Virus record (IMG/VR): IMGVR_UViG_3300034022_000267 | Span: 1 to 64,000 of that record | Direction: 5' to 3' (one strand) | Origin: a virus | Taxonomy: Duplodnaviria > Heunggongvirae > Uroviricota > Caudoviricetes | Length of the DNA: 64,000 nucleotides | Shown: piece after piece, positions 28,556-51,758 of the stretch | Position numbering within the stretch: position 1 is the first letter of the stretch | How the letters are laid out: each line of letters opens with the position of its first letter | Notes under the pieces: generated by a model | What the model saw: only the letters and a program-made list of their open reading frames with translations | The model's database searches: none | Told to the model about the DNA's origin: nothing | Position numbers and translations under genes: made by a program

Positions 28556-30517
28556 ATGAAAGAAGAAGTAATAATATATGACATAGAAACTATGCAAGAA
28601 CTATTCTTAGTTGTATGTATGGTGCCTGGTAAGATAGGTAAAAGCTTTCAAGTGTCTAAATGGAAGAATCAACTTGATGCTTTTGTTAGATATACAGAAG
28701 CTCATAGTGATGCTTATTGGGTGGGTTATAATAACCTACGCTTTGACAGTCAAGTTGTTGAATGGATCTTACGAAACTATGAGAAGTGGCATGAGTTAAC
28801 TAATCTAGAGGTATGTGCACTAATTGCACAGAAGGCTGCAGATGTTATCCATGATGCTAATTATGATGTATTCCCAGAATATAGAGAGCATGAACTAAGC
28901 CTTAAGCAAATAGATTTATTCAAAATCAATCATTACGATAATAAAAATCGTATGGTGAGCTTGAAGAGACTAGAGTTTGAAATGGATCTAGAGAACATAG
29001 AAGAAATGCCTATACATCACACTAAGGTGAATATAACAAAAGAAGAAGTAGAGATGACTATTGACTATTGTTATAATGATGTTGATGCTACTTATGAATT
29101 CTACAAGGTTACAACAGGTAATTGTGATCATCCTCTATACAAAGGAAACAATCAAATAGAGTTGAGACAAGATATTGAAGAAGAGTTTGGTATACCATGT
29201 CTGAACTATTCAGATAGTAAGATTGGTGATGAGATGATTAAGAAGTATTATTGTTCTGAGAAAGGAATTCAATACAAAGAACTTCCTAGAAAAGGATATT
29301 TCAGAAAGAGCATTGATGTAAAGAATTGCATTGCTAAGTATGTTGTATTTGAAACTCCTCAACTGAAAGAGTTTCTGAAAAAGATTAATAAACTGCAGCT
29401 TGGTCTGCAAGATGATTTCAAAGAGCATATAGATTTCCATGGAAATATGTATTCTTTTATGAAAGGTGGTCTTCACACAGAGAATAGTCCTAAGATATTT
29501 GAAGCTGATGAAGACTATGAGATAATCGATTGGGATGTGTCTAGTTACTATCCTGCCATCATTATTAACAATGGTAAGTTTCCTGCTCATTTAGGCAAAG
29601 AATTCCTTAGGGGATACAAACAGATGTTTGAGAAGAGATTGGAGCTTAAACCACTTGCTAAGAGTGATAAAAAGATTAAAGGAATTGTTGGAGCACTTAA
29701 ACTTGCAGTTAACTCTGTATATGGTAAGTCATCTGATATGTTATCATGGATATATGATAGGCAACTCACTATGTTCACCACAATTACTGGTGAATTATCA
29801 TTGATGATGCTTATTGAGAAATATGAAACCAATGACATACATGTGATCTCTGCAAATACAGATGGTGTAACTATTAAGATTAAGAAAGATCAAATTCCTT
29901 TAATGCATGAAATCAATGCATGGTGGTGTGAACTCACTCAATATGAGCTTGAGAGAACAGACTACTCAAAGATTATCTTTAGTACTGTGAATGATTATTT
30001 AGCAATTATGACCAATGGAGAAATTAAAAAGAAAGGTGATTTCCTTACTGACTTTGAGTTACATAAGAATAAATCAGCCAGAGTGGTTCCTATTGCTCTT
30101 GAGCAGTGGTTTGTACATGGTGTTCCTGTGGATACTACGATACGTAACCATACTAATCTTTATGACTTCTGTTTAAGACAGAAAGCTACTAGAAGTTTCC
30201 ATTATGAAGGAACTAATAGGTCAACTGGTAAGAAAACAGTGTATGATAAACTCATACGTTATTATGTATCCAATGAGGGAGACAAAATCTTTAAAATTAA
30301 AAATGAAGAGTGTCAAACTAGAGCTGCCGCAATAAGTCAAGTGGAAGCTGGTGAGTGGGTATGTAAAGTTTGTAATTTTCTACCAAAGAACAGTGCTGTT
30401 GATAATGTCAATTATGATTATTATATTGAGAAAGCTAACAGAATAGTCACAAAGATTAACACTGAAGGAAGAAGAATTAAAACAGTGTACATTCCTAACC
30501 AATTAAATCTATTTTAA
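28556..30517 (+). CDS. Family B DNA polymerase with 3'-5' exonuclease
   Basis: 653 aa. Exo I IYDIET, Exo II YNNLRFD, Exo III YCYNDVD; pol motif A DWDVSSYYPAII, motif B KLAVNSVYGK, motif C-like SANTDGV. Compact size, comparable to small phage polB enzymes. Confidence 0.75.
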   Translation: MKEEVIIYDIETMQELFLVVCMVPGKIGKSFQVSKWKNQLDAFVRYTEAHSDAYWVGYNNLRFDSQVVEWILRNYEKWHELTNLEVCALIAQKAADVIHDANYDVFPEYREHELSLKQIDLFKINHYDNKNRMVSLKRLEFEMDLENIEEMPIHHTKVNITKEEVEMTIDYCYNDVDATYEFYKVTTGNCDHPLYKGNNQIELRQDIEEEFGIPCLNYSDSKIGDEMIKKYYCSEKGIQYKELPRKGYFRKSIDVKNCIAKYVVFETPQLKEFLKKINKLQLGLQDDFKEHIDFHGNMYSFMKGGLHTENSPKIFEADEDYEIIDWDVSSYYPAIIINNGKFPAHLGKEFLRGYKQMFEKRLELKPLAKSDKKIKGIVGALKLAVNSVYGKSSDMLSWIYDRQLTMFTTITGELSLMMLIEKYETNDIHVISANTDGVTIKIKKDQIPLMHEINAWWCELTQYELERTDYSKIIFSTVNDYLAIMTNGEIKKKGDFLTDFELHKNKSARVVPIALEQWFVHGVPVDTTIRNHTNLYDFCLRQKATRSFHYEGTNRSTGKKTVYDKLIRYYVSNEGDKIFKIKNEECQTRAAAISQVEAGEWVCKVCNFLPKNSAVDNVNYDYYIEKANRIVTKINTEGRRIKTVYIPNQLNLF

Positions 30518-31870: not shown

Positions 31871-32107
31871 ATGGAAACAGCAAAAGAAAAGGCTAAAGAG
31901 TTAGTATATAAATTCTATCCTAATGTTCAATGGAAACTTGGACAAGAAGATTGTTTAGAAAGAGCTAAAAGTTGTGCATTGATACTTTGTGAAGAAATGA
32001 TTAAAAAATTTGAAGACATGCTTGAAGGAGATGAAAGACCATCTGTTGCAGTTTATTATCAATGGGAATATTATAAAGAAGTAAAACAAGAAATAGAGCT
32101 ATTATGA
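31871..32107 (+). CDS. Small protein, paralog of 26465..26692
   Basis: 78 aa. KEKAKELVYKFY...YKEVKQEIELL. Its stop overlaps the helicase start. Confidence 0.4.
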   Translation: METAKEKAKELVYKFYPNVQWKLGQEDCLERAKSCALILCEEMIKKFEDMLEGDERPSVAVYYQWEYYKEVKQEIELL

Positions 32108-33168
32108 GTTTTGACATATTAGATGCAGAAGTGAACAAAGGATTGGCAGGTAAGAATAAAGGAATCCCTATGGGTTTTGATAGACTTACCAACTATGTAG
32201 GAATACGTAAGAGTATGTATTATTTGATAGGTGGTAACACTGGTTCAGGTAAGACAAGCTTTATTGATGATGCCTTTGTTCTTAATCCTGTTGATTGGGC
32301 TATGTCTAAAGAAGGAATAGCTTCAGGAATCAAGGTGAAGGTTTGGTATAGATCTATGGAAAGAAGTAGAGCCTATAAAATGGCTAAATGGATGTCACGT
32401 AAGATCTTTATAGACCAAGGAATTCTTATTCCTGTAGGTAAACTGTTAGGTTGGAAAGAGATTATGACTAAAGATGAACATGACCTGTATTTACACTACA
32501 AAGACTATATGAATGAGTTGTGTGAAGTGGTTACGCTTATTGATGGACCAGAAAATCCTGTAGGTATAGCTAAAGATCTTAAAGCTTATGCTCTTAGTAA
32601 AGGAAGAATTGAACAGATGGATGAATGGAATAAAATATACATTCCAGATGATCCAAATGAAATCACTCTTGATGTAATTGACCATATTGGATTATTGAAA
32701 ACAACCACAGCACAACCAACCAAGAAAGAAGCTATAGACAAGATGTCTGATGAACTCAGATATGCTAGAGACTTCTATGGTCATAGTCCTGTTGTTGTAA
32801 GTCAGTTCAATAGAAGTATTTCTAATCCTGCAAGAATAAAGAATGGAGATGTTGAACCTCAACTAGAGGATTTTGCAGATAGTTCATCAACACAGAATGA
32901 TGCTGATGTAGTTATGGCATTATTTGATCCTATTAGATACAAGGTGGCAGATCCTTCTGGATATAACTTAGACAAACTAGTAGACTCCTATGGAGCTAAA
33001 TATTTCAGAAGTCTTAGAGTGATTAAGAATTCTTATGGAGAAGATGACATTAGAATTGGTATGGGTTTCCTAGGCCAAATTGGTATGTTTAAAGAGCTCC
33101 CTAGAAAGAAAGACATCACAGATAGTGATTATGAAGCTATTATTAACAAATCATACTTTCTAAGATGA
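32104..33168 (+). CDS. DnaB/gp4-like replicative helicase (RecA-fold ATPase)
   Basis: 354 aa. Walker A GGNTGSGKTSF, Walker B-like ITLDVIDH, and overall DnaB C-terminal-domain-like organisation. Confidence 0.55.
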   Translation: MSFDILDAEVNKGLAGKNKGIPMGFDRLTNYVGIRKSMYYLIGGNTGSGKTSFIDDAFVLNPVDWAMSKEGIASGIKVKVWYRSMERSRAYKMAKWMSRKIFIDQGILIPVGKLLGWKEIMTKDEHDLYLHYKDYMNELCEVVTLIDGPENPVGIAKDLKAYALSKGRIEQMDEWNKIYIPDDPNEITLDVIDHIGLLKTTTAQPTKKEAIDKMSDELRYARDFYGHSPVVVSQFNRSISNPARIKNGDVEPQLEDFADSSSTQNDADVVMALFDPIRYKVADPSGYNLDKLVDSYGAKYFRSLRVIKNSYGEDDIRIGMGFLGQIGMFKELPRKKDITDSDYEAIINKSYFLR

Positions 33169-33506
33169 AAAAAAGACATTTACAAAGTAGTTACAACTAT
33201 CGATTTCAAGAGCAATCAAAGCGTAAAAGAGATTATGAAAAGCTAAAGAAAATGAAAGAAAAAGCTATAAAACCTGAAGATGCTACAGAAGAACTTGAAT
33301 ACATAAAGAAGCTGTTAGGTGGAGAAGATGTTGGTGATTTTGGTCCTGAAGAACCATTAAAAGAAGATGATTCTCTTCATTGGGCTTCTGGTAACCCTTG
33401 GTTATATTCTAGTGCTCCTATGACTGGACAACAATTGCAATCACATTACAACTCACTTTCAGAACTTCTAGAAGGAAAATCAATTACAAAAGGAAAAAGA
33501 TTATAA
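33165..33506 (+). CDS. Hypothetical protein
   Basis: 113 aa. Confidence 0.35.
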   Translation: MKKRHLQSSYNYRFQEQSKRKRDYEKLKKMKEKAIKPEDATEELEYIKKLLGGEDVGDFGPEEPLKEDDSLHWASGNPWLYSSAPMTGQQLQSHYNSLSELLEGKSITKGKRL

Positions 33507-33532
33507 CAATTAACAATTAAAAACAATTAACA
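33503..33532 (+). promoter_or_regulatory. Triple copy of recurrent upstream motif ACAATTAA (AACAATTAACAATTAAAAACAATTAACAATG)
   Basis: The same TTAACAATTAA-type element sits 5-20 nt upstream of start codons at 14818, 28556, 30800, 36519, 40055, 40442, 43067, 49846 and 54490, and (reverse-complemented) before minus-strand genes at 60600 and 62850. Confidence 0.4.
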
Positions 33533-34216
33533 ATGAAAACAAAAAATTATTCAAAATTCGTGTTCTCTAAACAAAACAGAGAAGTTAAAACAAAAACAGT
33601 ATTGTCTCTTAAAGAATCAATGGCTAAGTTTGGATTTATTCCAGGTAGACCAGTGTTGATTACAAAAGAATGGGTGATTGTTGATGGACAACATAGATTT
33701 TTAGCTGCTAGAGATCTTGGTATTGAAATAGAGTTTGAAATATTAGAAGGAGACTATCTTGATAAGATGATCCATTTAAATTCTACACAGTCTAATTGGA
33801 CTTTAGAAGATTATGTTAATTCATATGCAAGTCAAAACATTGATTGTTATAGAAAACTTTTGAAATTCAAAGAGAAGTATGATTTAAATCTTTCTTCTGC
33901 TATTACTATTTTCTTTAGTCCAAGTGTAAAATCTGTTAATATTAAAAAAGGAGAGATTCTTAAGATTAACAGTAATGCAGATCAAGTAGCAGATTTCATC
34001 TCAAACTGTCATACAGTGGCTTATAATAAAGATAATAAGTTTGTTAGAGCAATTGTATCAGTTTATGATAAACTTACAAAATCTCAATTGAGCAAGTTAA
34101 AATCAAGATTAATCATTGTTCCAAAATTATCTAACTCAAGTGATTTTATCACAGCCTTTGAAAACATTATCAATAAAGGAAAAAGAGGAGATTATAAAGT
34201 GGATTTAAGTAAATAA
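33533..34216 (+). CDS. ParB-like nuclease domain protein (DGQHR motif; DndB-like)
   Basis: 227 aa. PGRPVLITKEWVIVDGQHRFLAARDLG matches the ParB/Srx-fold DGQHR signature. Confidence 0.5.
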   Translation: MKTKNYSKFVFSKQNREVKTKTVLSLKESMAKFGFIPGRPVLITKEWVIVDGQHRFLAARDLGIEIEFEILEGDYLDKMIHLNSTQSNWTLEDYVNSYASQNIDCYRKLLKFKEKYDLNLSSAITIFFSPSVKSVNIKKGEILKINSNADQVADFISNCHTVAYNKDNKFVRAIVSVYDKLTKSQLSKLKSRLIIVPKLSNSSDFITAFENIINKGKRGDYKVDLSK

Positions 34217-34219
34217 TTT

Positions 34220-34414
34220 ATGAAACCAGGAATAAAAGATAAATTAAAAATTGAGGCATCATTACATGCTTTATCAGGGCTCTTATCTAATCCAAATATA
34301 ATTAAAGAACTTGATGTAGAAAGTAAATTTATGTGTGATTTAGCTATGACAGCTACATCTTATGCTGATACATTGATTGATCAATTAGAAGAAGAGGAAG
34401 AACTATGGGAATAA
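34220..34414 (+). CDS. Hypothetical protein
   Basis: 64 aa, acidic tail. Confidence 0.3.
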   Translation: MKPGIKDKLKIEASLHALSGLLSNPNIIKELDVESKFMCDLAMTATSYADTLIDQLEEEEELWE

Positions 34415-35481
34415 GAGATATTAGGCAGAAAGAGTTTGCTGATGTATGGTTAAAAGAAAAGCATGGTATACTCAATCTATGTCCAAGATTTGGTAAGATA
34501 AGAACTAGTATAAATATACTAGAACATTTCAAACCAAAACTTAAAAGTGTACTTATTGCTTACCCAGATAACAAGATTAAAGAATCTTGGCAATCTGATT
34601 TTGCTGATAGAGGTTATCTTGATGCTAATGTAACATATACTACTCACTTATCACTAAAGAAATATGTTGATGAGGAGTATGATATTATTATCATAGATGA
34701 GATACATCTACTGAGCGAAGCTCAAATAGAAGTGTGTAAGGACCTGTTCAGTAACAATGGACAGGTTCTTGGTCTCACTGGTACATTATCCAGTGATACA
34801 GAAAGAACCTTAGAAGAAGAACTTGATATACATGTAATAGCTCATTATCCAATTGAAAAAGCAATTGAAGAAGGAGTGATTGTAGATTATGAAATACATG
34901 TAATTAAAGTGCCTTTAGATAATATCACTATGCAATATAACAATAAACAAAAAACAGAGAAGAAACATTATGATGGATTATCATGGGTAATCAATAAACT
35001 TCAGAATAGTGGATCAGATACAATGTTTATGCGTCTTGCTAGAATGAGAGTTATTCAATCATCCCTGGCCAAAACTAATGCTACAAAGCGACTTTTGGCT
35101 GCACATAAAGATGAGAGGGTTCTTGTGTTCTGTGGAACCACCAAAGTGGCAGATAGTCTTGGTATTCCTTCCTATCACAATAAGTCTAAAGAGAAAGAAA
35201 TCTTTGAAGACTTTGCTGAAGGTAAAGGTAATCATCTAGCTGTTGTAAAGATTGGTAATACAGGAGTGACGTATAAACCTCTTGATCGAGTAATAATAAA
35301 CTATTTCGATAGTAATGCAGAGAATCTCGCACAAAAAATAAATCGATGCATGGCTATGGAATATAACACTCCAGATAAGAAAGCACATGTATATATAGTG
35401 AGCTCTAATGAACCTGTAGAATTGAAATGGTTATCAAAAGCACTTGAGTTCTTTGATAAAAGCAAGATAAAATATGTATAA
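34405..35481 (+). CDS. Superfamily-2 (DEAD/DEAH-like) helicase
   Basis: 358 aa. Motif II IIIDEIH, motif III-like LGLTGTLS, and a C-terminal helicase domain. Confidence 0.55.
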   Translation: MGIRDIRQKEFADVWLKEKHGILNLCPRFGKIRTSINILEHFKPKLKSVLIAYPDNKIKESWQSDFADRGYLDANVTYTTHLSLKKYVDEEYDIIIIDEIHLLSEAQIEVCKDLFSNNGQVLGLTGTLSSDTERTLEEELDIHVIAHYPIEKAIEEGVIVDYEIHVIKVPLDNITMQYNNKQKTEKKHYDGLSWVINKLQNSGSDTMFMRLARMRVIQSSLAKTNATKRLLAAHKDERVLVFCGTTKVADSLGIPSYHNKSKEKEIFEDFAEGKGNHLAVVKIGNTGVTYKPLDRVIINYFDSNAENLAQKINRCMAMEYNTPDKKAHVYIVSSNEPVELKWLSKALEFFDKSKIKYV

Positions 35482-35541
35482 TTAAAATAATTATTCGTAT
35501 CTTTATATAATGAAAATAACTAATTAAATAAATTAAAAACT

Positions 35542-36216
35542 ATGAGTTCAAAGCTAGTAGGGATTGTAGGTGCTACAGGTACAGGAAAGAGTACAGCCAT
35601 TAAGCATCTAAATCCAGAAGAAACGTACATTATTAATGTTGCAAAGAAAGAGCTTCCATTCAAAGGAAGTGAAAAGCTTTACAACACAGAGAACAAGAAT
35701 TACAAAGAAGTAGAAGATGCTAATGAAATTAGTCGTTTGCTAAAAACTATTTCTGAAAAAGCTCCTCACATTAAGAACATCATTATTGAAGACTCTAATT
35801 ACATTATGGGATTCAATATGGTGGCTAAAGCTACAGAGACAGGATTTACCAAATTTAGTCTTATGGCTAAAGACATGGTGGATTTGTTTAGAACAGCTAG
35901 ACAATTGAGAGATGACGTCACTGTATTCTATCTTACACATCCAGAAGAAGTGATGGATGGTCAAGATGTAATAGGATATAAAATCAAGACAGCAGGTAAG
36001 TTGATTGATAACCAAGTGTTACTTGAGGGATTATTAACTGTATGTCTATACACTCTTGTAGAAGAGAACAAAGATGGAACAGCTAATTATCAATTTGTAA
36101 CTAATCGTTATAGAAAGTATCCAGCTAAGAGTCCTGATGGGATGTTCCAAGAATTAAAAATACCTAACAATCTGCAAATGGTTGCAGAAAGTCTAACTAA
36201 TTATTATAATGCTTAA
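35542..36216 (+). CDS. P-loop ATPase (AAA_24/Sak4-like)
   Basis: 224 aa. Walker A GIVGATGTGKST, Walker B IIIEDSNY. The size is typical of phage Sak4-like recombination ATPases. Confidence 0.45.
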   Translation: MSSKLVGIVGATGTGKSTAIKHLNPEETYIINVAKKELPFKGSEKLYNTENKNYKEVEDANEISRLLKTISEKAPHIKNIIIEDSNYIMGFNMVAKATETGFTKFSLMAKDMVDLFRTARQLRDDVTVFYLTHPEEVMDGQDVIGYKIKTAGKLIDNQVLLEGLLTVCLYTLVEENKDGTANYQFVTNRYRKYPAKSPDGMFQELKIPNNLQMVAESLTNYYNA

Positions 36217-37455: not shown

Positions 37456-38457
37456 ATGATACAAGGTAGAAAAAGAATAAACTTGACACCTGATAGCATA
37501 TTAGAAAAGATATCTGAATATGATATTTATAAGTTCTATATGCCACATCAGAATTGGAAAATTAATGTTGTTACTTATTCACCCTTTAGAAATGAAAAAC
37601 ATCCTTCATTCATTATAGGATATAAAGGAGGAGCATTGAGATATTGTGATTTTGGAGATTCCAGCAAAAAAGGTGGATGCTTTGATTTTGTAATGATGCT
37701 ATTCAATATATCATTGCGAGAAGCATTGTTAATGATTGATAGAGATTTTGATCTAGGGATTGTCACAGAATCCTCTACAAAGAATTATGAGAGGATTATT
37801 TCTAATTATGCTCAACCAACTGCTACATCTAAACGTGAGTTCTTTATTCAAGTGAAGACAAGAAAGTTCACAAATGAAGAATTAGCATATTGGAATGGAT
37901 ATTATCAGGACATAGATGATCTTAGAGCTAATAATGTATATTCAATAGACACACTTTATCTAAACAAAAAGAAGTTCCCTATAAAGGACTCTGAGCTTAG
38001 ATTTGGTTATCTATATGAAGGACATTGGAAGCTATATAGACCATTTGCAGACAAAAAGAATAAGTGGATGCCAAATAATGTACCTATCACTATGATGGAT
38101 GGACTAGATGACATAAGAGATTGTGATGTTGCGTTCATCAATAAGAGTAAGAAGGATTACATGGTGATGAAAAAGATTTACCCATGTTGTTGTGCAGTTC
38201 AAAATGAGGGTATGGGATGTTTCTCTGAAGAGAACGTTGAATATCTAAAAGAGAACTCAGACAGACAGATCTTGAGCTTCGACAGTGATGAGGCTGGTGT
38301 AAAGAATTCTCAACTCGTGACAGATAAGTTTGGGTTTGAGTATTGCAATGTACCAAAGCTCTATCTAGGAGAAGGAATTAAGGACTGGGCTGATCTAGCT
38401 AAGACACATGGATTAAAAGTTATAGAAGAATATTTAACACAAAGAGAAATAATATGA
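37456..38457 (+). CDS. DnaG-like primase (TOPRIM) with degenerate zinc-ribbon
   Basis: 333 aa. YSPFRNEKHPSFII...YCDFGDSSKKGGCFDFVMM aligns to the DnaG zinc-binding-domain consensus CPFHxEKTPSF...HCFGCGxGG, but the zinc ligands are replaced (C to Y, H to R, C to D). TOPRIM-like ILSFDSDEAG. Confidence 0.5.
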   Translation: MIQGRKRINLTPDSILEKISEYDIYKFYMPHQNWKINVVTYSPFRNEKHPSFIIGYKGGALRYCDFGDSSKKGGCFDFVMMLFNISLREALLMIDRDFDLGIVTESSTKNYERIISNYAQPTATSKREFFIQVKTRKFTNEELAYWNGYYQDIDDLRANNVYSIDTLYLNKKKFPIKDSELRFGYLYEGHWKLYRPFADKKNKWMPNNVPITMMDGLDDIRDCDVAFINKSKKDYMVMKKIYPCCCAVQNEGMGCFSEENVEYLKENSDRQILSFDSDEAGVKNSQLVTDKFGFEYCNVPKLYLGEGIKDWADLAKTHGLKVIEEYLTQREII

Positions 38458-39117: not shown

Positions 39118-39282
39118 ATGAGAGCAACAGATGACGAGTTAGAAATACTCGAAGAAGAAATTAAAGAGAACATTGAATGGCTAAATGCATCAAGAGATTA
39201 TGATGTAGAATGTATAAGTGTAGAGAACTTAGAAGGAATATTAACAAGGTTCTTTCATAGAAAAATATCATTATCATCATGA
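39118..39282 (+). CDS. Small acidic protein
   Basis: 54 aa, not in the ORF track. ATGA overlap with the next gene. Confidence 0.25.
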   Translation: MRATDDELEILEEEIKENIEWLNASRDYDVECISVENLEGILTRFFHRKISLSS

Positions 39283-39998
39283 AATGGGAAGCGTTTAAAG
39301 ACAAGTTTCATCCAAGCTGGCATGCAAGGTTGCAGCCATTCATAGAGAGTGAAGAGTGTGATAAGATATATGCATATCTAAAAGCAGAGAGTAAGAGAGG
39401 CAAGAAGGTAGCTCCTATATCTATGCATGTTTGGAGATGTTTCTTAGAGACACCATTAGATGAACTTAAAGTGGTGTTAGTGGGCATGTGTCCTTATCAC
39501 ACATTTAAGAATGATGCACCAGTAGCAGATGGATTACTTATGGGATGTTCTGTAACAGGACAAGTTCAACCTTCCTTAGATCAGTTTTATAGAGCTATGG
39601 AAAAGGAATTCTACGATGGGCTAAACTTAGATATTATAGAGAACCCAGATGTAAGCTTCTTAGCTCACCAGGGAGTGTTGATGCTTAATGCTGCTTTAAC
39701 AACAGAGATGAACAAAGCTGGATCTCATATGGAAATATGGGAACCCTTTATCAAATATCTCTTTGAGGAAATTATAAACCACTTAGGTGTACCAATTGTC
39801 TTTTTAGGAAAAGACGCTGCTAGATACAAAAAATACACAGGTATATTTACACATGTATTTGAAATTAGTCATCCAGCAAGTGCTTCCTATAAAGGATTAG
39901 ATTGGGACACAGAAGGTGTGTTTAGCAAGGTATCACGACTTATTGAAGAAACTAACAATGAAACTATAAGTTGGGTACAAATTGACTGTCCTTTTTAA
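39279..39998 (+). CDS. Family-1 uracil-DNA glycosylase homolog with catalytic Asp replaced by Cys
   Basis: 239 aa. LKVVLVGMCPYH versus UNG VKVVILGQDPYH; GVLMLNAAL versus GVLLLNTVL; HPASASY versus HPSPLSAH. The catalytic Asp in GQDPYH is Cys here. Confidence 0.6.
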   Translation: MKWEAFKDKFHPSWHARLQPFIESEECDKIYAYLKAESKRGKKVAPISMHVWRCFLETPLDELKVVLVGMCPYHTFKNDAPVADGLLMGCSVTGQVQPSLDQFYRAMEKEFYDGLNLDIIENPDVSFLAHQGVLMLNAALTTEMNKAGSHMEIWEPFIKYLFEEIINHLGVPIVFLGKDAARYKKYTGIFTHVFEISHPASASYKGLDWDTEGVFSKVSRLIEETNNETISWVQIDCPF

Positions 39999-40054: not shown

Positions 40055-40360
40055 ATGAAACCAAAAAAAGAACAAATTTTATGTGCTGCAATATGGTTAC
40101 AAGAAGCTGAAAGAGCAGTTCATAGACCTATTAATACACCAGGAGGTGTTGTTATTTGTGGATTTAGACATGGTAACTGTATATCATCTATAGTATCACT
40201 TACAGGTAAGAGATTACACGAACATGGAGAACATGTGCAAGGATTTTTAACTAACTTCAATAGATTTGTTGATAGAGAAGAAGGTGCTGAAATTTGGATT
40301 AGTAATGAAGGTAAATTAAGTTATTCTGAAAAAGAATTATATTCAGAAGATTTATATTAA
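40055..40360 (+). CDS. Hypothetical protein
   Basis: 101 aa. Confidence 0.35.
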   Translation: MKPKKEQILCAAIWLQEAERAVHRPINTPGGVVICGFRHGNCISSIVSLTGKRLHEHGEHVQGFLTNFNRFVDREEGAEIWISNEGKLSYSEKELYSEDLY

Positions 40361-40709: not shown

Positions 40710-43001
40710 ATGATATTAGAAAAACAGAAAGAAGCAAATGTCCTAGAAGAAGGACAAGCACAAGAATCAATTGGAATGTCCCTAGACTTAGATTCTGCAC
40801 AAATATTGATGCAGATGTTAAGTAAGAATTTATATTCTGATGATATAGGCTCTGCTATCAGAGAATGTGCAAGTAATGCATTAGATAGCCATAGAAGAGC
40901 TGGTGTGGACACACCAATTGTAGTTTCATTTAAAGCATCTACAACTAACAATTATGAGTTTTGTGTAGAAGATTTTGGTATAGGCTTAGATGCTGATGAT
41001 GTGAGAAACATTATTAGTAAATATGGTAAATCTACCAAGAGAAATTCTACAACAGAATTAGGTATGATGGGTCTTGGTTTTAAAGCTCCTCTTGCATATT
41101 CTAGTAGTTTCTACTTTGTATGTAGAAAAGATGGAATGGAACGTAAGTATATGATGTATGAAGGAGAAGATACTAATACTATTGATCTTTTATATGAAAC
41201 AAAAACAGAAGAACCTAATGGTGTAAAGATCATTATTCCTGTTAAGTTTAATGATAGATGGAGTTTTATGAGGAAAATCAAAGAACAACTTTGTTATTTT
41301 GAGAGTGTGTATTTTGATGTACCAGAAGATTCAAGCATTACTAATGATTTCTTAATATCTAGACATACACATTTTCAATTCTCTGAAATGTCTACAGACA
41401 CAAGATTACATATATGTTTAGACAATGTGTATTATCCTTTAGACTTTGAGAAGATAGGAATTGATAGAATTGATTTTCCTATAGCTCTTAGATTTTCATT
41501 GAGTGATGGATTATTTCCTACACCAAATAGAGAATCTTTGCGTTATACACAAGAAGCTAAGAAGATAATTATGGACAAGCTTGCTCAAGTGGCAGATTAT
41601 TATGTTGAGACATATAATAAATCTTTAAACGAAGGAAGTGATATTAAATCTATGATTAATTATCTTGAGAAGAATGGACATTATATTGAAATGTCTAGTA
41701 GAAAGTATAAAATTGATAATTTTCTTAGATATGCCAGTGTTAAACCACTTATACCAGAATTAGAAGGAGTGAAGTTACTCAACTTTCCTTCTTTGTATAA
41801 AATGTACAAACAAAACATTCTAGTTGATGCTTTTCCTTCTAAATTTTCTTTAAGATATAAAAGACTGTCAAGTGCAGATAATTATGTATATGGATATAAC
41901 TTAGAGAGTGTGTGTAATGGACAAGCTAAAGTTTGGGTATATGATGATAGAATTCCTCAGATCAAGAAAGATTACCTAAGAGCTACATGTGTAGAAAATG
42001 AACACAATTTCATTGTTAAAAGAGCTGCTCCTATGAAACTAGGAGTTCCTGCTAAGTTTGATCTTAAAACTTACTATCACTTATTAGCACTTAAGAGTTA
42101 TCCAAAAGATCAATGGAGAGATGTCATTAAAGAGTATCAGCACATTATGTCTATGATTGAAGAAACTTTCATTGATCTTGATGCTCTTAATGTTCCTCAA
42201 GACTTTATTGATAGCAAGAAGAAAGCAAAGATTAGTAAAGCTGGTATAGCTAGTACTAAAAGATTAAAGCTACAAGGAGAAATTGTATGTAAAAAAGGTG
42301 TAGATCTACTTAGATATAATGGTGGTAAAAACTGTAAGTTTGATTCTCAAATCTACAAGTTAGAAAATCTTGAAAGTGATAAGAACTTAAAGATTTACAC
42401 TCATCATGATGACTGTCTAAAACTTGATCCTTTATATGGTATGATGTCAAAACAAAAAATGGAAGTGATTACATTCTCTAGTAGAGAACTAAAGATTGTA
42501 GAACAATTAAACATACACAATTTAATATCTTACGAAAAGTTTATGGAAGGTAAAACAGCACCATTTAAAAGAATCATTACATCTGTATTAATAAATGAGA
42601 TGATGGGTCTTTATAGAAGCACATTTGATAGGATTGATGCTGTAAGATATGTATCTACTGATTTAGCTAATAAACTAGATAGATTATCTCAATATAGAAG
42701 AGATAACTATGTATCAACAGATCATGATTTAAGAAAAGCTATGTTAGAAGTGGCATTAGAACATAACTTGTTTGATCCACAAATCTATACAGAGTATATA
42801 GAGATGTTAGACATCTTTGATAAGCTTACATTCTTAAATCCTGTATGTGCAAGATTGGGATACACTCGTGAAGATGATCCAATGATACCAGTGATAATTG
42901 ATCTTTTCAAGTATTACAAACATAGAGTGGATCTAAAGCATTATAATATCAAAATCAATGATGAAGTGCTTACAGAAGAAACAATAGATCAATTAGCATA
43001 A
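40710..43001 (+). CDS. Hsp90/HtpG-family GHKL ATPase homolog
   Basis: 763 aa. The N-terminus ILMQMLSKNLYSDDIGSAIRECASNALDS matches the Hsp90 helix-1/N-box [32 protein letters not shown]. G1 box VEDFGIGLD, G2 box GMMGLGFKAPLAYS. YMMYEGED...GVKIIIPVK parallels Hsp90 YVWES...GTKVILHLK. Confidence 0.55.
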   Translation: MILEKQKEANVLEEGQAQESIGMSLDLDSAQILMQMLSKNLYSDDIGSAIRECASNALDSHRRAGVDTPIVVSFKASTTNNYEFCVEDFGIGLDADDVRNIISKYGKSTKRNSTTELGMMGLGFKAPLAYSSSFYFVCRKDGMERKYMMYEGEDTNTIDLLYETKTEEPNGVKIIIPVKFNDRWSFMRKIKEQLCYFESVYFDVPEDSSITNDFLISRHTHFQFSEMSTDTRLHICLDNVYYPLDFEKIGIDRIDFPIALRFSLSDGLFPTPNRESLRYTQEAKKIIMDKLAQVADYYVETYNKSLNEGSDIKSMINYLEKNGHYIEMSSRKYKIDNFLRYASVKPLIPELEGVKLLNFPSLYKMYKQNILVDAFPSKFSLRYKRLSSADNYVYGYNLESVCNGQAKVWVYDDRIPQIKKDYLRATCVENEHNFIVKRAAPMKLGVPAKFDLKTYYHLLALKSYPKDQWRDVIKEYQHIMSMIEETFIDLDALNVPQDFIDSKKKAKISKAGIASTKRLKLQGEIVCKKGVDLLRYNGGKNCKFDSQIYKLENLESDKNLKIYTHHDDCLKLDPLYGMMSKQKMEVITFSSRELKIVEQLNIHNLISYEKFMEGKTAPFKRIITSVLINEMMGLYRSTFDRIDAVRYVSTDLANKLDRLSQYRRDNYVSTDHDLRKAMLEVALEHNLFDPQIYTEYIEMLDIFDKLTFLNPVCARLGYTREDDPMIPVIIDLFKYYKHRVDLKHYNIKINDEVLTEETIDQLA

Positions 43002-43066
43002 TTAACAGAGGGACATCAATGTCCCTCTTATTTAACAAGTAACAATTAATTAATAAATAAATCAAA

Positions 43067-44623
43067 ATGGAACACAAATTTTTATCATTAGATTGGTTCA
43101 AAGAAACCGCAGAAAATGCAATTGCTAATGTTGTAGCTAACAAGTTAGAAAGCTTAATGGGAGAAGAACAACAAGGTTCTGATCCTGCTATTGCTAAAAA
43201 AGTTGAAGGAAAACCATATTTTAGTATGAAGATGGTAAATGACACACTTACAGTGGTATTGAACGATGGTGCTATTATTAGTAAACCTAATGCATGTGAA
43301 GATGATTTCTATGCTATATCAAAAGCTACATCTGTAGAAGAAATATTAGTTATTATATCTTCTGCTGAAGTGATGGCTAATGTAGAGAAAGCAAAAGCTG
43401 AAGCAGCTAGAATCAAAGCATTACAACAAGGTATTGAAAGATTATCTATAGTTGATGATTTTACTATAAAAGGTAACTCAGTTTATCTAAAAGGCACATC
43501 TAGAAGTATGCCTCAATTATTAGTTGAGAAGTTTATAGAAATAGTATATAGAGTACACAATACTGACTTAGAATGTGGATTAGAACAATTGCAAGACATG
43601 TTGAACGAAGATGATGATTACATGGCCCATAAGAACTTCTTTATGTGGTGTTGTCTTAATCCAAGAGCTGAGGTTGCTAATGAACTATATAGATTCTTAA
43701 CAGACAATAGTTTCAAAATTACTAAACAAGGATTCTTTGTAGCTCTTAGAAATGTTGTTACTGTTCATGGATCTCCAGAACTAGTTCACTTCGTAAGTAA
43801 TGCTTACAACAAAGTGAAAGCTGTGTGGAAGAAAAATCCAGCTGAGTATACAGTTTTCTTAGAAGATGGTGAATACAAACTTATACATGATGATAAGTTA
43901 TTTGAAACTATAATTGTAGATGATACAACATGTACATGTTGTGATGGAAATGGTGGATGGTATACTGAGTGGAATGATGAAATGGAAGATGAAGAATGGG
44001 AAGACTGTGAACTATGTGATGGAACAGGAGAAGTGGAAGAATATGAATATGAACAAACAGTTCCTGTAGACCATGGTGAAAGAATAGGTGGTTTGACAGA
44101 ATTGTATTTAGATCTTCCTAATAGAGAAGAGAATAGATTCACTGATAACTGGACTAAAACATTTGACATTCGTGTTGGACAAGTGGTCTCTATGCCTAAA
44201 GAAGAATGTAACTGGAGTACACAAGATTGTGCTACAGCAGGTCTTCACTTTGCTGGTTATACAGCTCCTTATGTTCTTTGTGGTGATACCACTGTTATGA
44301 CTCTTCATAATCCTATGAAGGTTGTGGGTATTGGTGCAGTGAAAGGTAGATGTTGGGAATATCTCCCATTCATGCTAACCACTGTTGCTGAAGCAGATCA
44401 GATTATGAATGATAGAAGCTTTGATTTCTTACAATTAGATGAGCAATATGCTATTCGTGAATTAGAAAGCTTAGCTGAAAAAGCTAAAGAAGGATTTGCA
44501 GTTGAATCTAAGAAATATGAATTCAATATGCCAGCTATTTCTGCATCAGAAATCAACATGATTGTTGCCAATCTTAGTGAGATGAAAACTAAGATAAAAG
44601 ACAGAGTGGTTACAATTAAGTAA
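43067..44623 (+). CDS. Protein with two DnaJ-type CxxCxGxG zinc-finger repeats
   Basis: 518 aa. CTCCDGNGG and CELCDGTGE flank an acidic segment. No J-domain HPD motif seen. Confidence 0.4.
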   Translation: MEHKFLSLDWFKETAENAIANVVANKLESLMGEEQQGSDPAIAKKVEGKPYFSMKMVNDTLTVVLNDGAIISKPNACEDDFYAISKATSVEEILVIISSAEVMANVEKAKAEAARIKALQQGIERLSIVDDFTIKGNSVYLKGTSRSMPQLLVEKFIEIVYRVHNTDLECGLEQLQDMLNEDDDYMAHKNFFMWCCLNPRAEVANELYRFLTDNSFKITKQGFFVALRNVVTVHGSPELVHFVSNAYNKVKAVWKKNPAEYTVFLEDGEYKLIHDDKLFETIIVDDTTCTCCDGNGGWYTEWNDEMEDEEWEDCELCDGTGEVEEYEYEQTVPVDHGERIGGLTELYLDLPNREENRFTDNWTKTFDIRVGQVVSMPKEECNWSTQDCATAGLHFAGYTAPYVLCGDTTVMTLHNPMKVVGIGAVKGRCWEYLPFMLTTVAEADQIMNDRSFDFLQLDEQYAIRELESLAEKAKEGFAVESKKYEFNMPAISASEINMIVANLSEMKTKIKDRVVTIK

Positions 44624-44636
44624 TTTAATTATAGTT

Positions 44637-44667
44637 TAGTCCCTTATTTTGATTAAATTTGGGACTA
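44637..44667 (+). terminator. Hairpin (terminator/attenuator)
   Basis: tagtccc-17 nt loop-gggacta directly after the 43067..44623 stop. Confidence 0.4.
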
Positions 44668-44684
44668 AATTTAATTATAATAAT

Positions 44685-45095
44685 ATGGCAAAGAGAGTAT
44701 TGGTCCCAAAGACAAGATGTGCAGGTAGCATGAGCGAAGCTGCATTCTGGTCATTTATCAGAAGTGCTTTGAGACAAAAAAGTAGATGGTGGAAGCCCAT
44801 AGCAGTGTGTAAGTTAAATGCACGTAGAGATTACAAAGGACCTAGTAAAAGACAAAAATACGAATACCAATGTAAGAAGTGTAAAACTTGGACCACTGAA
44901 AAGAATATTAATGTGGATCATATCATCCCTGCAGGAAGCTTGAACACAGCACAAGATTTACCACTATTTGTGGAGAGATTGTTTTGTGAACAAGATAATT
45001 TGCAAGTGTTATGTACTGCATGCCATGATGTAAAAACACTTAAAGAGAAGCAATCTAAAAAGAAAACAGATGGAAAAACAAATAATACTCAATAG
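44685..45095 (+). CDS. HNH endonuclease
   Basis: Track ORF 44649..45095. The listed start lies inside the hairpin, so the likely start is ATG 44685 (MAKRVL). HNH motif VDHIIPAGS...NLQVLCTACHDVKT with CxxC pairs. Confidence 0.6.
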   Translation: MAKRVLVPKTRCAGSMSEAAFWSFIRSALRQKSRWWKPIAVCKLNARRDYKGPSKRQKYEYQCKKCKTWTTEKNINVDHIIPAGSLNTAQDLPLFVERLFCEQDNLQVLCTACHDVKTLKEKQSKKKTDGKTNNTQ

Positions 45096-50943: not shown

Positions 50944-51758
50944 GTATCATAGGTATAAATGGGAAAATTGGTGTTGGAAAAGATACTGTAGGTAGTATTA
51001 TTCAATATTTAACATCTGAATATAGAGATAAATATAATTTTATAGAATGGCAAGATAGAGTAGAAAATTATGGATCAAGTACATACTCACCATTTGAAAT
51101 TAAGAAGTTCGCAGGAAAATTGAAAACAATTGCTTCCCTTCTTACTGGTATACCTATAGAAAAGTTTGAAGACCAAGATTTTAAAAAACAAGTAATGTCT
51201 AAAGAATGGATACAACCTAAACATTATAATTGTGAAAATTATGATATAGAAGATGGAGGAGGTAATTGTTCTTTTTGTTCTTGTAAAGAAAAAGAAATGA
51301 CATATAGAGAATTTCTTCAAAAACTTGGTACAGAAGCAATGCGTGACGGTTTACATAAAGAAGTTTGGGTCAATGCTTTGTTTGCTGATTATAAAACAAC
51401 AATACCTGTAAATGATGAACATTTTGAACATGTGTCTACAGGACATTATACATTAAAACACGATGTAACTTTACCTAATTGGATTATTACAGACATGAGA
51501 TTTCCTAATGAAATGGAAGCGGTTGTAGAAAGAAAAGGTATTACTATTAGAGTCGTGAGACCAAAAATTGAATCTGTTGTAGATAAAATGAGACCTTATT
51601 CAGATTTAGTTCATTATGGAATACCTATGCCTGTAGAACATCCTTCAGAAACAGCTCTCGATGATGCTGAGTTTGATTATGAAATTATCAATGATGGATC
51701 TATAAAAGATCTAATAGAAAAAGTTAAACAAATATTAATAACAGAAAAAATTATATGA
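50940..51758 (+). CDS. Deoxynucleoside monophosphate kinase-like P-loop kinase
   Basis: 272 aa. The N-terminus GINGKIGVGKDTVGSII is similar to the T4 gp1 GxxRSGKDT P-loop. Confidence 0.5.
   Translation: MSIIGINGKIGVGKDTVGSIIQYLTSEYRDKYNFIEWQDRVENYGSSTYSPFEIKKFAGKLKTIASLLTGIPIEKFEDQDFKKQVMSKEWIQPKHYNCENYDIEDGGGNCSFCSCKEKEMTYREFLQKLGTEAMRDGLHKEVWVNALFADYKTTIPVNDEHFEHVSTGHYTLKHDVTLPNWIITDMRFPNEMEAVVERKGITIRVVRPKIESVVDKMRPYSDLVHYGIPMPVEHPSETALDDAEFDYEIINDGSIKDLIEKVKQILITEKII

What the first reader, a model, noticed from the sequence alone, without database searches (positions are those of the whole stretch)
39279..39998. Family-1 uracil-DNA glycosylase homolog with the water-activating Asp replaced by Cys (GMCPYH instead of GQDPYH)
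All UNG signature blocks are recognisable (LVG-x-x-PYH, GLLMGCSV, QPSLDQFY, GVLMLNAAL, HPASASY). The uracil-recognition Tyr, Asn and the C-terminal His are kept. The catalytic Asp (D64 in E. coli) is Cys and the preceding Gln is Met. This predicts altered or abolished glycosylase chemistry. It could be a uracil-DNA binding or decoy protein, or have a different substrate specificity, perhaps linked to modified bases given the nearby MTase and glycosyltransferases.
Basis: partly seen in the sequence, partly recalled or inferred. Interest (0 to 1): 0.55.

Follow-up and report, generated by a model that had tools for sequence, protein, structure and literature searches.

The report
Phage UNG-like protein lacking catalytic Asp
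A phage replication-module gene encodes an intact uracil-DNA-glycosylase fold that keeps its uracil pocket but has lost the water-activating aspartate, and related phages show the same gene losing its catalytic site step by step, which suggests its main job in replication does not need glycosylase chemistry.

Summary
ORF 39279-39998 (+, 239 aa) is a family-1 UNG-fold protein (Pfam UDG, PDB UNGs at E~1e-15, AF2 pLDDT 96.6, TM~0.8). GMCPYH aligns to GQDPYH. Tyr, Asn and the motif-2 His are kept. This is not an error. None of about 200 relatives at 62-93% identity has Asp (Cys, Ala or Ser only), and dN/dS is about 0.15. The Cys itself is not special: Ala arose at least 4 times while the rest of the pocket stayed invariant. 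The gene lies in the replication module of an uncultured crAss-related phage, just after the primase. In the same slot, sister phages carry Asp-bearing forms, Cys/Ser/Ala forms, or fully degenerate forms lacking Asp, His and sometimes Asn. Across the wider phage family, Asp was lost about 17 times. Best reading (confidence about 0.45): a uracil-recognising replication accessory with weak or no excision and a glycosylase-independent core role, as in vaccinia D4. Main rival (about 0.3): a still-active glycosylase using Asp-independent chemistry, as in UDG families 4-6. The link to the MTase and glycosyltransferases is unsupported. This is a new variant of a known kind, of moderate interest.

The parts
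39279..39998 (+). UNG-like gene (239 aa), a family-1 UDG fold without the water-activating Asp
   Evidence: ORF; Pfam UDG; PDB UNG matches; AF2 model and Foldseek; dN/dS 0.13-0.16
39483..39500 (+). Motif 1, G69-M70-C71-P72-Y73-H74 (E. coli GQDPYH); the Cys codon TGT is at 39489-39491
   Evidence: In the clade C71 is 94% Cys with the rest Ala or Ser, while Y73 and H74 are invariant
39531..39548 (+). G85-L-L-M88-G-C90. M88 replaces the uracil-stacking Phe77. C90 is a family-wide Cys whose presence does not depend on residue 71
39669..39701 (+). QGVLMLNAALT, with the uracil-specificity Asn137 (codon 39687-39689) invariant
39870..39887 (+). Motif 2, H198-P-A-S-A202-S (E. coli HPSPLS). The leaving-group His is kept and the intercalating Leu is replaced by Ala
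37456..38457 (+). DnaG-type primase, the conserved upstream neighbour of the UNG-like gene
   Evidence: Pfam Toprim_2 and Zn_ribbon_DnaG, both weak; PHROG 12622; present upstream in 74 of 80 loci; 57-65% identical in the loci of the other active-site grades
39118..39282 (+). Small acidic ORF (54 aa, pI 4.35) whose stop overlaps the UNG-like start (ATGA). A variable accessory gene
   Evidence: found in 40 of 80 loci and not always adjacent
28556..30517 (+). Divergent DNA polymerase with a weak family-B signal. Head of the replication module
   Evidence: PHROG 1252; TIGR00592 at E 4.8e-6, below cutoff; no Pfam or PDB sequence hit
32104..36216 (+). DnaB-like helicase (32104-33168), SNF2-type helicase (34405-35481) and Sak4-like ATPase (35542-36216)
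   Evidence: synteny
40710..44623 (+). rIIA-like (40710-43001) and rIIB-like (43067-44623) genes, the conserved downstream neighbours
   Evidence: present in 69 and 61 of 80 loci

Best explanation
The gene encodes a replication-module accessory protein built on an intact family-1 UNG fold. It still recognises uracil in DNA through the retained pocket (Tyr73, Asn137, His198, with Met88 in place of the stacking Phe). It has lost the general-base Asp, its partner Gln and the duplex-intercalating Leu. I expect it to bind uracil-containing DNA, probably template or single-stranded DNA at the fork. I expect excision to be very slow (orders of magnitude below a canonical UNG) or absent. Its main selected role would be a glycosylase-independent one within the phage replication machinery, as for vaccinia D4 and herpesvirus UNGs. 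What is shown: the fold, the residue assignments, purifying selection, the dispensability of the Cys side chain, the position in the replication module, and orthologs in the same slot with completely degenerate active sites. What is inferred: uracil binding, attenuated chemistry, and any physical association with the replisome.
For: (1) Fold and residue mapping come. (2) The gene is functional. dN/dS is 0.13 against an 89%-identical relative, and the median is 0.16 over 141 unsaturated pairs. (3) Among 79 genes at 62-93% identity, Y73, H74, M88, C90, N137, H150, K178, H198 and P199 are invariant, but residue 71 is Cys, Ala or Ser. Ala arose at least 4 times, in clades of 18, 3, 3 and 1, with up to 26% divergence among them, and all keep the rest of the pocket. 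The side chain at the old Asp position therefore does no essential chemistry. (4) Synteny is primase, UNG-like gene, rIIA, rIIB within a module of DNAP, DnaB, SNF2 and Sak4 genes. (5) Orthologs 40-47% identical to the query sit directly after a 57-65%-identical primase yet lack Asp and the motif-2 His. P0125 also lacks Asn and P0143 keeps it. P0125 reads GPPPSY / LLLH / LPDIELY, and P0143 reads GGNPYD / MMLN / LEDLPGT. P0143 still models as a confident UNG fold (pLDDT 95, TM~0.8). The orthologous group therefore has a function that needs no glycosylase chemistry. (6) Among 134 full-length 50%-identity representatives the grades are: D+H+N 56, C/S/A+H+N 36, E+H+N 11, other+H+N 7, and about 23 without His. 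Parsimony on an NJ tree gives Asp as ancestral, with about 17 changes between Asp and non-Asp. The cultured Cellulophaga phage phi14:2 gp053 reads GKEPY and EDPIQ. (7) Precedents exist. [quoted passage not shown] EBV and HCMV UNGs are structural replisome elements (PMC5934625). D145N/H268N hUNG keeps specific uracil-DNA binding (PMC4756853). D145E and H268L strongly reduce hUNG excision (PMC8730318).
Against: There is no biochemical or interaction evidence. His198, Asn137, Tyr73 and His74 are invariant across about 180 distinct sequences. That is what one would expect if catalysis, and not only binding, were still selected. UDG families 4, 5 and 6 lack this Asp, carrying a small Gly or Ala there, and family 4 is nevertheless a robust enzyme (PMC5387724). 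Loss of Asp co-varies with His at +3 (25 of 37 against 5 of 56; Fisher p=6e-9, not corrected for phylogeny), which could be a compensatory water-positioning residue. The degenerate orthologs show a non-catalytic function for the group, but they do not show that the query's own form is inactive. No A20-like bridging partner was identified. The NJ and parsimony count of losses is rough.
Confidence: 0.45

Rival explanations
1. It is still a competent uracil-DNA glycosylase that works without the Asp, as UDG families 4, 5 and 6 do. His198 would stabilise the uracilate leaving group in an SN1-like step. Water would be positioned by the backbone, by His74 or by another residue. A small residue (Cys, Ala or Ser) at position 71 would simply make room for that water.
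For: His198, Asn137, Tyr73 and His74 are invariant, and only small residues occur at position 71 in about 200 relatives. His at +3 accompanies Cys, Ser or Ala in several separate clades, whereas the Asp forms mostly have Pro there. PMC5387724 reports that the Asp is missing in families 4, 5 and 6, that family 4 has Gly or Ala there yet is robust, and that the Q-D doublet co-evolves; here both residues changed together. PMC8730318 notes possible assistance from His148 and a cleaved bond in a D145N/L272R crystal.
Against: In family-1 enzymes, replacing the Asp (even D145E) strongly reduces excision (PMC8730318). The protein also lacks the intercalating Leu, two of the four phosphate-pinching Ser residues and the stacking Phe. 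Close orthologs have gone on to lose His and Asn entirely while staying in place, which argues that catalysis is not what holds the gene. No equivalent of the family-4 motif-3 Asn could be placed without coordinates.
Confidence: 0.3
2. It is a counter-defence or protective binder. Either it shields uracils in phage DNA from host UNG and AP-endonuclease cleavage, or it acts as a decoy that soaks up UNG-directed inhibitors or sensors.
For: The uracil pocket is retained without the general base. Absence of the Leu that Ugi grips implies insensitivity to Ugi-type inhibitors (PMC1936997 for vvUDG). No dUTPase or thymidylate synthase was found among the window ORFs scanned. A crAssphage paper speculates that its UDG has an anti-defence role (PMC10983915).
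Against: Stoichiometric shielding is inefficient. The gene is fixed inside the replication module next to the primase, not among variable anti-defence genes. Degenerate orthologs that cannot bind uracil are still kept. Only 64 kb of a genome of about 100-118 kb was examined, so a dUTPase may lie elsewhere.
Confidence: 0.1
3. It has a changed substrate specificity and acts on a modified base in hypermodified phage DNA, in connection with the nearby methyltransferase and glycosyltransferases.
For: A T4-type dNMP kinase (50940-51758) and an MTase plus two glycosyltransferases (55248-57196) lie in the window. UDG-fold enzymes that act on modified bases are known (Brig1-type glycosylases, cited in 10.1101/2025.03.26.645540).
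Against: Tyr73, which excludes 5-substituted pyrimidines in UNG, and Asn137, which selects uracil over cytosine, are invariant. The MTase is O-methyltransferase-like and the transferases are GT2 and DXD sugar transferases. They lie 16 kb away in a separate block of auxiliary genes and are not syntenic with the UNG-like gene across loci. The same Asp loss occurs in many unrelated genomic contexts.
Confidence: 0.05
4. The Cys is a new functional group: a nucleophile forming a covalent DNA-protein link as in UdgX, a metal ligand, or a redox switch.
For: The thiol sits where the attacking water is normally held. Cys is the commonest residue at this position (94% in the clade). An invariant second Cys (C90) is nearby in sequence.
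Against: Ala replaced Cys at least 4 times in long-lived, diversified lineages, and Ser also occurs, with every other pocket residue unchanged. C90 is equally common in the Asp-bearing forms (41 of 57), so it is not coupled to residue 71. There is no UdgX-type loop, and the best matches are family 1, not the family-4-like group.
Confidence: 0.03
5. It is a sequencing error, a strain-specific mutation or a decaying pseudogene.
For: None beyond the atypical motif.
Against: None of about 200 relatives has Asp. The ORF is intact in 78 of 80 loci with an ATG start. dN/dS is about 0.15.
Confidence: 0.01

Closest known systems
Family-1 uracil-DNA glycosylase (E. coli Ung, human UNG)
   Same: The fold is the same (TM 0.77-0.87) and the sequence matches are the best found (E~1e-15). 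Tyr66, Asn123, His187 and His67 are conserved, as are the PSL and QGVLLLN blocks.
   Different: Motif 1 is GMCPYH rather than GQDPYH, so there is no water-activating Asp. Phe77 is Met. HPSPLS is HPASAS, so there is no intercalating Leu. The Gly-Ser loop Ser is Lys. The protein scores 76-110 bits against NCBIfam ung equivalogs whose cutoffs are 143-237.
UDG of cultured crAss-like phages (crAss001 gp74, DAC15 gp86, IAS virus, FpV4 gp54; PHROG 12143)
   Same: It belongs to the same phage-type branch: PHROG 12143 at E 1.8e-30 and 28-35% identity. It sits in a replication or nucleotide-metabolism module, and it shares HPA-type motif 2 without Leu.
   Different: Those proteins keep GQDPY[PC] and the stacking Phe, whereas the window's clade has lost Gln, Asp and Phe. 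Public records simply name them uracil-DNA glycosylase, or hypothetical protein, without comment.
Poxvirus D4 (vaccinia UNG, mpox E4), a subunit of the polymerase processivity factor
   Same: It is a viral UNG-fold protein tied to replication, and the essential role of D4 does not need the catalytic site (PMC2630940, PMC1936997). Motif 2 is altered in both (HPAARDR in D4) and lacks the Leu. This is the best functional analogy.
   Different: D4 keeps Asp68 and is an active glycosylase. It binds A20, and no A20 counterpart is identified here. Sequence similarity is weak: UDG chains 8qam_B and 4qc9_A, which I take to be poxvirus D4/E4 from their lengths and from memory (not checked), match at E 5e-4 to 1e-2. 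The polymerase partner here is unproven.
UDG families 4, 5 and 6 (UDGa, UDGb, HDG), active glycosylases without the motif-1 Asp
   Same: A small non-acidic residue sits at the Asp position, and the motif-2 His is retained for leaving-group stabilisation (PMC5387724).
   Different: They are different families, with GE[AG]PG or GLAPG motifs. From my own knowledge, families 4 and 5 carry an Fe-S cluster, and family 4 uses a motif-3 Asn for water. The query's sequence and fold matches are all family 1.
Engineered catalytically dead hUNG (D145N/H268N) used as a uracil-DNA sensor
   Same: It shows that a family-1 fold without the Asp keeps tight, specific uracil-DNA binding (PMC4756853). The window protein looks like a natural counterpart of the D145 half of that design.
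   Different: The natural protein keeps the His. It also differs at the Leu, Phe and Ser positions. Its binding is untested.
UdgX (covalent uracil-DNA binding protein)
   Same: It is a UDG-superfamily member that recognises uracil but does not turn over (PMC4787834).
   Different: UdgX is family-4-like and, from my own knowledge, cross-links through a dedicated His loop. Here the candidate nucleophile Cys is replaceable by Ala.

Membership tests
UDG superfamily (Pfam PF03167) | Score above the Pfam gathering threshold | tested here: met
   32.4 bits against a cutoff of 24.3, E 1.2e-7
Family-1 UDG (UNG) | Family-1 alpha/beta fold and topology | tested here: met
   AF2 pLDDT 96.6. All top-50 Foldseek PDB hits are family-1 UNGs at TM 0.70-0.87. 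phmmer finds 45 UNG chains
Family-1 UDG (UNG) | Motif A, GQDPY, with the water-activating Asp (E. coli D64) | tested here: not met
   The query has GMCPY. Asp is absent in about 200 close relatives
Family-1 UDG (UNG) | Motif B His (H187), which stabilises the leaving group | tested here: met
   H198 is invariant in 79 of 79 genes
Family-1 UDG (UNG) | Intercalating Leu in HPSPLS (L191) | tested here: not met
   The query has HPASAS. Among 150 phage-type representatives this column is Ala in 96 and Leu in none
Family-1 UDG (UNG) | Uracil-specificity residues Tyr66 and Asn123 | tested here: met
   Y73 and N137 are invariant
Family-1 UDG (UNG) | Uracil-stacking Phe77 | tested here: not met
   M88 is invariant in the clade. 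Family-wide the column is F 75, M 39, L 31
Family-1 UDG (UNG) | NCBIfam 'ung' equivalog score cutoffs | tested here: not met
   76-110 bits against cutoffs of 143-237 for five models
Family-1 UDG (UNG) | Uracil excision activity | not testable with these tools
   Needs an enzyme assay
Phage-type UDG branch (PHROG 12143; crAss-like phage 'UDG') | Full-length profile match and placement in the replication module | tested here: met
   PHROG 12143 at E 1.8e-30 over 8-232 of the protein and 4-227 of the profile. Synteny
Replisome-associated viral UNG (poxvirus D4-like) | A function that persists without the catalytic site | tested here: inconclusive
   Orthologs in the same slot lack Asp and His, and in one case also Asn, yet are maintained. 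This shows the point for the group, not directly for the query's form
Replisome-associated viral UNG (poxvirus D4-like) | Physical binding to the polymerase or to a bridging cofactor (A20-like) | not testable with these tools
   No complex prediction or pull-down is available. No A20 homolog was sought or found
UDG families 4/5 (Asp-less active glycosylases) | GE[AG]PG or GLAPG motif A and a family-4/5 sequence signature | tested here: not met
   All sequence and fold matches are family 1. Motif A keeps the family-1 PY(H)
UdgX-type covalent binder | An essential nucleophilic residue that cross-links to the abasic sugar | tested here: not met
   The candidate Cys71 is replaced by Ala in at least 4 independent lineages

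The most novel reading that the evidence does not exclude
The whole phage-type UDG branch found in crAss-like and related phages may be first of all a structural or DNA-tracking subunit of the phage replisome. That would be a bacterial-virus counterpart of poxvirus D4 and herpesvirus UNG. Nature would then have produced a graded series in one orthologous slot: Asp forms, then Cys/Ser/Ala forms, then forms with no Asp, His or Asn, as catalysis is shed repeatedly. In the window's clade, the loss of Asp coincides with replacement of a PolA by a divergent PolB-like polymerase, so the state of the active site may track the polymerase partner.
Probability: 0.3. Interest if true: 0.7.

Novelty: new variant of a known kind. 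Interest (0 to 1): 0.5.

Why it matters
These genes are routinely annotated as 'uracil-DNA glycosylase', so in many phage genomes and metagenomes they would be counted as repair capacity. This analysis shows that a large and abundant lineage lacks the defining catalytic Asp, and that some orthologs have no catalytic site at all. More than 555 IMG/VR stretches encode relatives, and 1202 clusters match in the protein database. If the core role is glycosylase-independent, phages would offer a natural mutational series and simple genetic systems for an open question from eukaryotic virology: why DNA viruses build a UNG fold into their replication machinery. Cellulophaga phage phi14:2, crAss001 and FpV4 are candidate systems. 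If the protein is instead still active, it would be the first family-1 enzyme that works without the Asp, which bears on the long debate over the UNG mechanism.

Tried and rejected
(1) Sequencing error or pseudogene: rejected, because about 200 relatives have no Asp and dN/dS is about 0.15.

(2) Cys as a nucleophile, metal ligand or disulfide partner of C90: rejected, because of the independent Ala and Ser lineages and because C90 is equally frequent in Asp forms.

(3) Link to the MTase and glycosyltransferases: these are an O-MTase-like protein and GT2 and DXD sugar transferases 16 kb away, with no conserved linkage.

(4) The small acidic upstream ORF (39118-39282) as a Ugi- or p56-like partner: it is present in only 40 of 80 loci, is not always adjacent, and has no family hit. 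I left it as a side note.

(5) The closest cultured relative by TerL, Leptolyngbya phage Lbo-JY46: it has no UNG-like gene, so it is not a model system.

(6) Near-identical DNA in the phage collection: none found.

(7) The search for related loci with the diverse alignment A2 failed because no conserved stretch was available. Scans with P0125 and P0123 as queries found nothing in IMG/VR.

(8) Correlation of active-site grade with polymerase type: the Cys/Ala/Ser clade has the window-type DNAP in 47 loci and PolA in 1, while the Asp and degenerate sisters have PolA. This is effectively one clade and one event, so it is a lead and not a result.

(9) Classifying the DNAP: there is no Pfam or PDB sequence hit and only a weak pol2 signal.

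(10) Literature searches for a prior description of Asp-less phage UNGs found none. The library is incomplete, so this is absence of evidence only.

(11) Atomic distances around residue 71, and a possible alternative water-positioning residue (E143, N145), could not be checked because model coordinates are not exposed.
Full report
**The observation**

Window 39279..39998 (+) is an intact ATG-to-stop ORF of 239 aa. It matches Pfam UDG PF03167 above the gathering threshold (32.4 against 24.3 bits). It matches 45 solved family-1 uracil-DNA glycosylases by sequence, the best at E~1e-15. The printed alignments place 'vlvgmcpyh' on 'vvilgqdpyh', 'gvlmlnaalt' on 'gvlllntvlt' and 'hpas' on 'hpsp'.

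An AlphaFold2 model built on 104 relatives is very confident (pLDDT 96.6, pTM 0.92). All of its top 50 Foldseek matches in the PDB are family-1 UNGs at TM 0.70-0.87.

Mapping to E. coli Ung gives Q63->M70, D64->C71, Y66->Y73, H67->H74, N123->N137 and H187->H198. Three further departures were not noted: the uracil-stacking Phe77 is Met88, the intercalating Leu191 is Ala202 (HPSPLS becomes HPASAS), and the Gly-Ser-loop Ser166 is Lys178. The protein scores far below the curated cutoffs of all five NCBIfam 'ung' equivalog models. Its best phage family is PHROG 12143, annotated 'unknown function'.

**Not an error, and not about the Cys**

Among the 120 closest database proteins (71-90% identical) the motif is G[LMF]CPY in 95, GMAPY in 23 and GMSPY in 2. 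Asp never occurs. Among 80 IMG/VR loci (62-93% identical) the position is Cys in 73 (TGT 60, TGC 13), Ala in 4 and Ser in 1.

The gene is under purifying selection. dN/dS is 0.13 against an 89%-identical relative, and the median is 0.16 over 141 unsaturated pairs.

In that clade Y73, H74, M88, C90, N137, H150, K178, H198 and P199 are invariant, while residue 71 is not. On a tree of 179 distinct sequences, Ala arose at least four times (clades of 18, 3, 3 and 1). Those lineages have diverged by up to 26% and keep all the other pocket residues.

So the side chain at the former Asp position carries no essential chemistry. That rejects a nucleophile, metal-ligand or redox role for the Cys. The neighbouring invariant Cys90 is just as common in Asp-bearing relatives.

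**Genomic setting**

The window is AT-rich (about 31% GC). It has no near-identical relative among deposited phages. Its large terminase is closest to Leptolyngbya phage Lbo-JY46 (40%), then to Cellulophaga phages phi17:2 and phi4:1 (31%), then to Crassvirales (25-27%). The portal and terminase fall in PHROGs 6547 and 6681. Relatives lie on contigs of 100-123 kb.

The UNG-like gene sits inside a co-oriented replication module:
- a divergent DNA polymerase (28556-30517; PHROG 1252; only a weak family-B signal);
- a DnaB-like helicase;
- an SNF2-type helicase;
- a Sak4-like ATPase;
- a DnaG-type primase (37456-38457);
- a few small ORFs;
- the UNG-like gene;
- a T4 Y16D-like ORF;
- rIIA- and rIIB-like genes;
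- an exonuclease;
- RecA/UvsX.

Across the 80 loci the primase is upstream in 74, and rIIA and rIIB are downstream in 69 and 61. No dUTPase, thymidylate synthase or second UDG was detected among the window ORFs scanned. Only 64 kb of the genome is in view, however.

They look like an O-methyltransferase and sugar transferases. Nothing connects them to this gene or to DNA.

**The wider family**

An exhaustive search of 1.84 billion representatives found 139 proteins at E<=1e-30. In the best 150, the E. coli D64 column is D 58, C 24, S 23, E 15, G 6, A 5 and N 4. Q63 is Q 44, L 29 and M 27. F77 is F 75, M 39 and L 31. N123 is Asn in 140. H187 is His in 119. L191 is Ala in 96 and Leu in none.

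Among 134 full-length members the grades are as follows:

| Grade | Count |
|---|---|
| Asp + His + Asn | 56 |
| Cys/Ser/Ala + His + Asn | 36 |
| Glu + His + Asn | 11 |
| other + His + Asn | 7 |
| no motif-2 His | about 23 |

On a neighbour-joining tree rooted on E. coli Ung, parsimony infers Asp as ancestral, with about 17 changes between Asp and non-Asp (a rough estimate).

Cultured Steigviridae crAss-like phages (crAss001 gp74, DAC15, PhiCrAssBcn, IAS virus) and Flavobacterium phage FpV4 keep GQDPY and Phe, although they too lack the Leu. Cellulophaga phage phi14:2 gp053, annotated 'uracil-DNA glycosylase', reads GKEPY and EDPIQ, so it has neither the Asp nor the His. Published crAss-phage analyses simply list 'UDG' (PMC7886860; PMC10983915). 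My literature searches found no description of Asp-less phage UNGs.

**Orthologs with no active site**

The strongest functional clue comes from proteins 36-50% identical to the query. They share its N-terminal 'FHxSWH...PFIESEECDxIY' and C-terminal 'W...VPF' segments but have lost the catalytic motifs.
- P0125 (46% identical) reads GPPPSY for GMCPYH, LLLH for LMLN and LPDIELY for SHPASAS.
- P0143 (40% identical) reads GGNPYD, and LEDLPGT in place of motif 2.

Both are encoded immediately after a primase that is 57-65% identical to the window's, in the same DNAP, DnaB, SNF2, Sak4 and primase module. P0143 lies on a 122.7-kb contig.

P0143 still models as a confident UNG fold (pLDDT 95.0; TM about 0.8 to family-1 UNGs). 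The caveat is that its alignment contains catalytic relatives. An IMG/VR relative only 53% identical to P0143 shares the degenerate state, so that state is old.

Asp-bearing sisters (P0123 MDPYN, P0124 QDPYF, both with HPASAA) occupy the same slot after a 57-60%-identical primase. One orthologous position therefore holds all three grades. The group as a whole must have a selectable function that needs neither glycosylase chemistry nor, in some lineages, uracil recognition.

**How it most likely works**

I commit to the following. The window protein is a replication-module accessory that retains a uracil-specific pocket and so still recognises uracil in DNA. With the general base, its partner Gln, the intercalating Leu and two of the four phosphate-pinching serines gone, it excises uracil very slowly or not at all. 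Its main selected role is glycosylase-independent, within or beside the replisome.

The steps that are shown are the fold, the residue mapping, selection, dispensability of the side chain at 71, module context and the degenerate orthologs. The steps that are inferred are uracil binding, the degree of catalytic attenuation and any physical association with replisome proteins.

The analogy is vaccinia D4:
- its motifs are GIDPYP and HPAARDR, with no Leu (PMC1936997).

EBV and HCMV UNGs likewise serve as structural replisome elements (PMC5934625). A D145N/H268N human UNG keeps specific, tight uracil-DNA binding (PMC4756853). Even D145E strongly reduces excision in hUNG (PMC8730318).

**The main rival**

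UDG families 4, 5 and 6 lack this Asp, and family 4 has Gly or Ala there. Family 4 is nevertheless a robust enzyme that relies on the motif-2 His, and the Q-D doublet co-evolves (PMC5387724).

Here both Q and D changed, only small residues are tolerated at 71, and His198, Asn137 and Tyr73 are invariant. His at +3 (H74) accompanies Cys, Ser or Ala in several separate clades, whereas Asp forms mostly have Pro (25 of 37 against 5 of 56; Fisher p=6e-9, uncorrected for phylogeny). His148 has been suggested to assist Asp145 in hUNG (PMC8730318).

So an Asp-independent but still competent glycosylase cannot be excluded. I give it about 0.3, against 0.45 for the attenuated or non-catalytic reading. 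Lesser rivals (uracil shielding or decoy, modified-base specificity, Cys chemistry, artefact) are treated in the rival list.

**A lead, not a result**

In the Cys/Ala/Ser clade the polymerase upstream is the window type in 47 loci and PolA in 1. The Asp-bearing sisters (L112, L115) and the degenerate forms (L099, L105) carry a PolA unrelated to the window's polymerase. This looks like the polymerase switching described for crAss-like phages (PMC7886860). It might be linked to the state of the UNG-like active site, but it amounts to one clade and needs a proper comparative test.

**Verdict**

The protein is a member of the UDG superfamily and of the phage-type branch of family 1. It fails three defining features of canonical UNG (Asp, Leu, Phe) and the curated equivalog thresholds, so it should not be annotated as a uracil-DNA glycosylase without qualification.

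I rate it a new variant of a known kind and of moderate interest (0.5). The finding is not the single substitution. It is that a widespread phage replication gene is shedding its catalytic site in stages.

Noticed in passing
window 21508-21843 (+): A phage-encoded tmRNA gene. ARAGORN predicts the tag peptide ANAQIEANMNKVFSLISEDVVIVGLAA*. Rfam RF00023 scores 74.7 bits against a gathering score of 47 (E 3.4e-27), a full-length match.
   Followed up: partly
window 28556-30517 (+); L099, L105, L112, L115: The window's DNA polymerase has no Pfam or PDB sequence hit and only a weak family-B (pol2) signal. Sister phages whose primase is 44-65% identical (and, in L105, whose DnaB is 63% identical) carry an unrelated PolA (PF00476) in the same slot. 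This is polymerase switching within one phage group, possibly correlated with the UNG-like active-site grade.
   Followed up: partly
window 39118-39282 (+): A small acidic ORF (54 aa, pI 4.35) whose stop overlaps the UNG-like start codon (ATGA). Homologs occur in 40 of 80 related loci but are not always adjacent. It has no family hit. A Ugi- or p56-like role was considered but nothing supports it.
   Followed up: partly
L095 (Cellulophaga phage phi14:2, KC821624.1) 5968-6678: gp053 of this cultured crAss-like phage is annotated 'uracil-DNA glycosylase', but it reads GKEPY and EDPIQ and so lacks both the catalytic Asp and the motif-2 His. It could serve as an experimental system.
   Followed up: partly
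window 8919-9524 (-), 15839-16453, 19024-19689, 23627-24355, 44649-45095 (+): The window has an unusually high density of homing-endonuclease-like ORFs: GmrSD_C/HNH-like, GIY-YIG+NUMOD, LAGLIDADG, NUMOD and HNH. In relatives a LAGLIDADG ORF interrupts or abuts the DNAP and rIIA regions.
   Followed up: no
window 40710-44623 (+); L097 (IAS virus): rIIA- and rIIB-like genes lie directly downstream of the UNG-like gene. In IAS virus, genes annotated 'protector from prophage-induced early lysis' lie directly upstream of its UDG. This suggests a conserved UDG-rII linkage across distant crAss-like phages.
   Followed up: no
window 40055-40360 (+): A 101-aa ORF belonging to Pfam PF26092 (T4_Y16D, uncharacterised) lies just downstream of the UNG-like gene and is conserved in close relatives.
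   Followed up: no
window 16746-18880, 20269-21084, 50940-51758, 53629-54276, 55248-57196 (+): Auxiliary genes in the window: a MoxR-like AAA+ ATPase with a 412-aa partner of unknown family, an SPFH/Band-7 protein, a T4-type dNMP kinase, PhoH, and a block of one O-methyltransferase-like gene plus two glycosyltransferases.
   Followed up: no
L092-L094 (Leptolyngbya phage Lbo-JY46, PP438436.1): This is the closest cultured relative by terminase (40%). It shares primase, DnaB and RecA homologs but has no UNG-like gene, so the gene is not universal in this phage group.
   Followed up: yes
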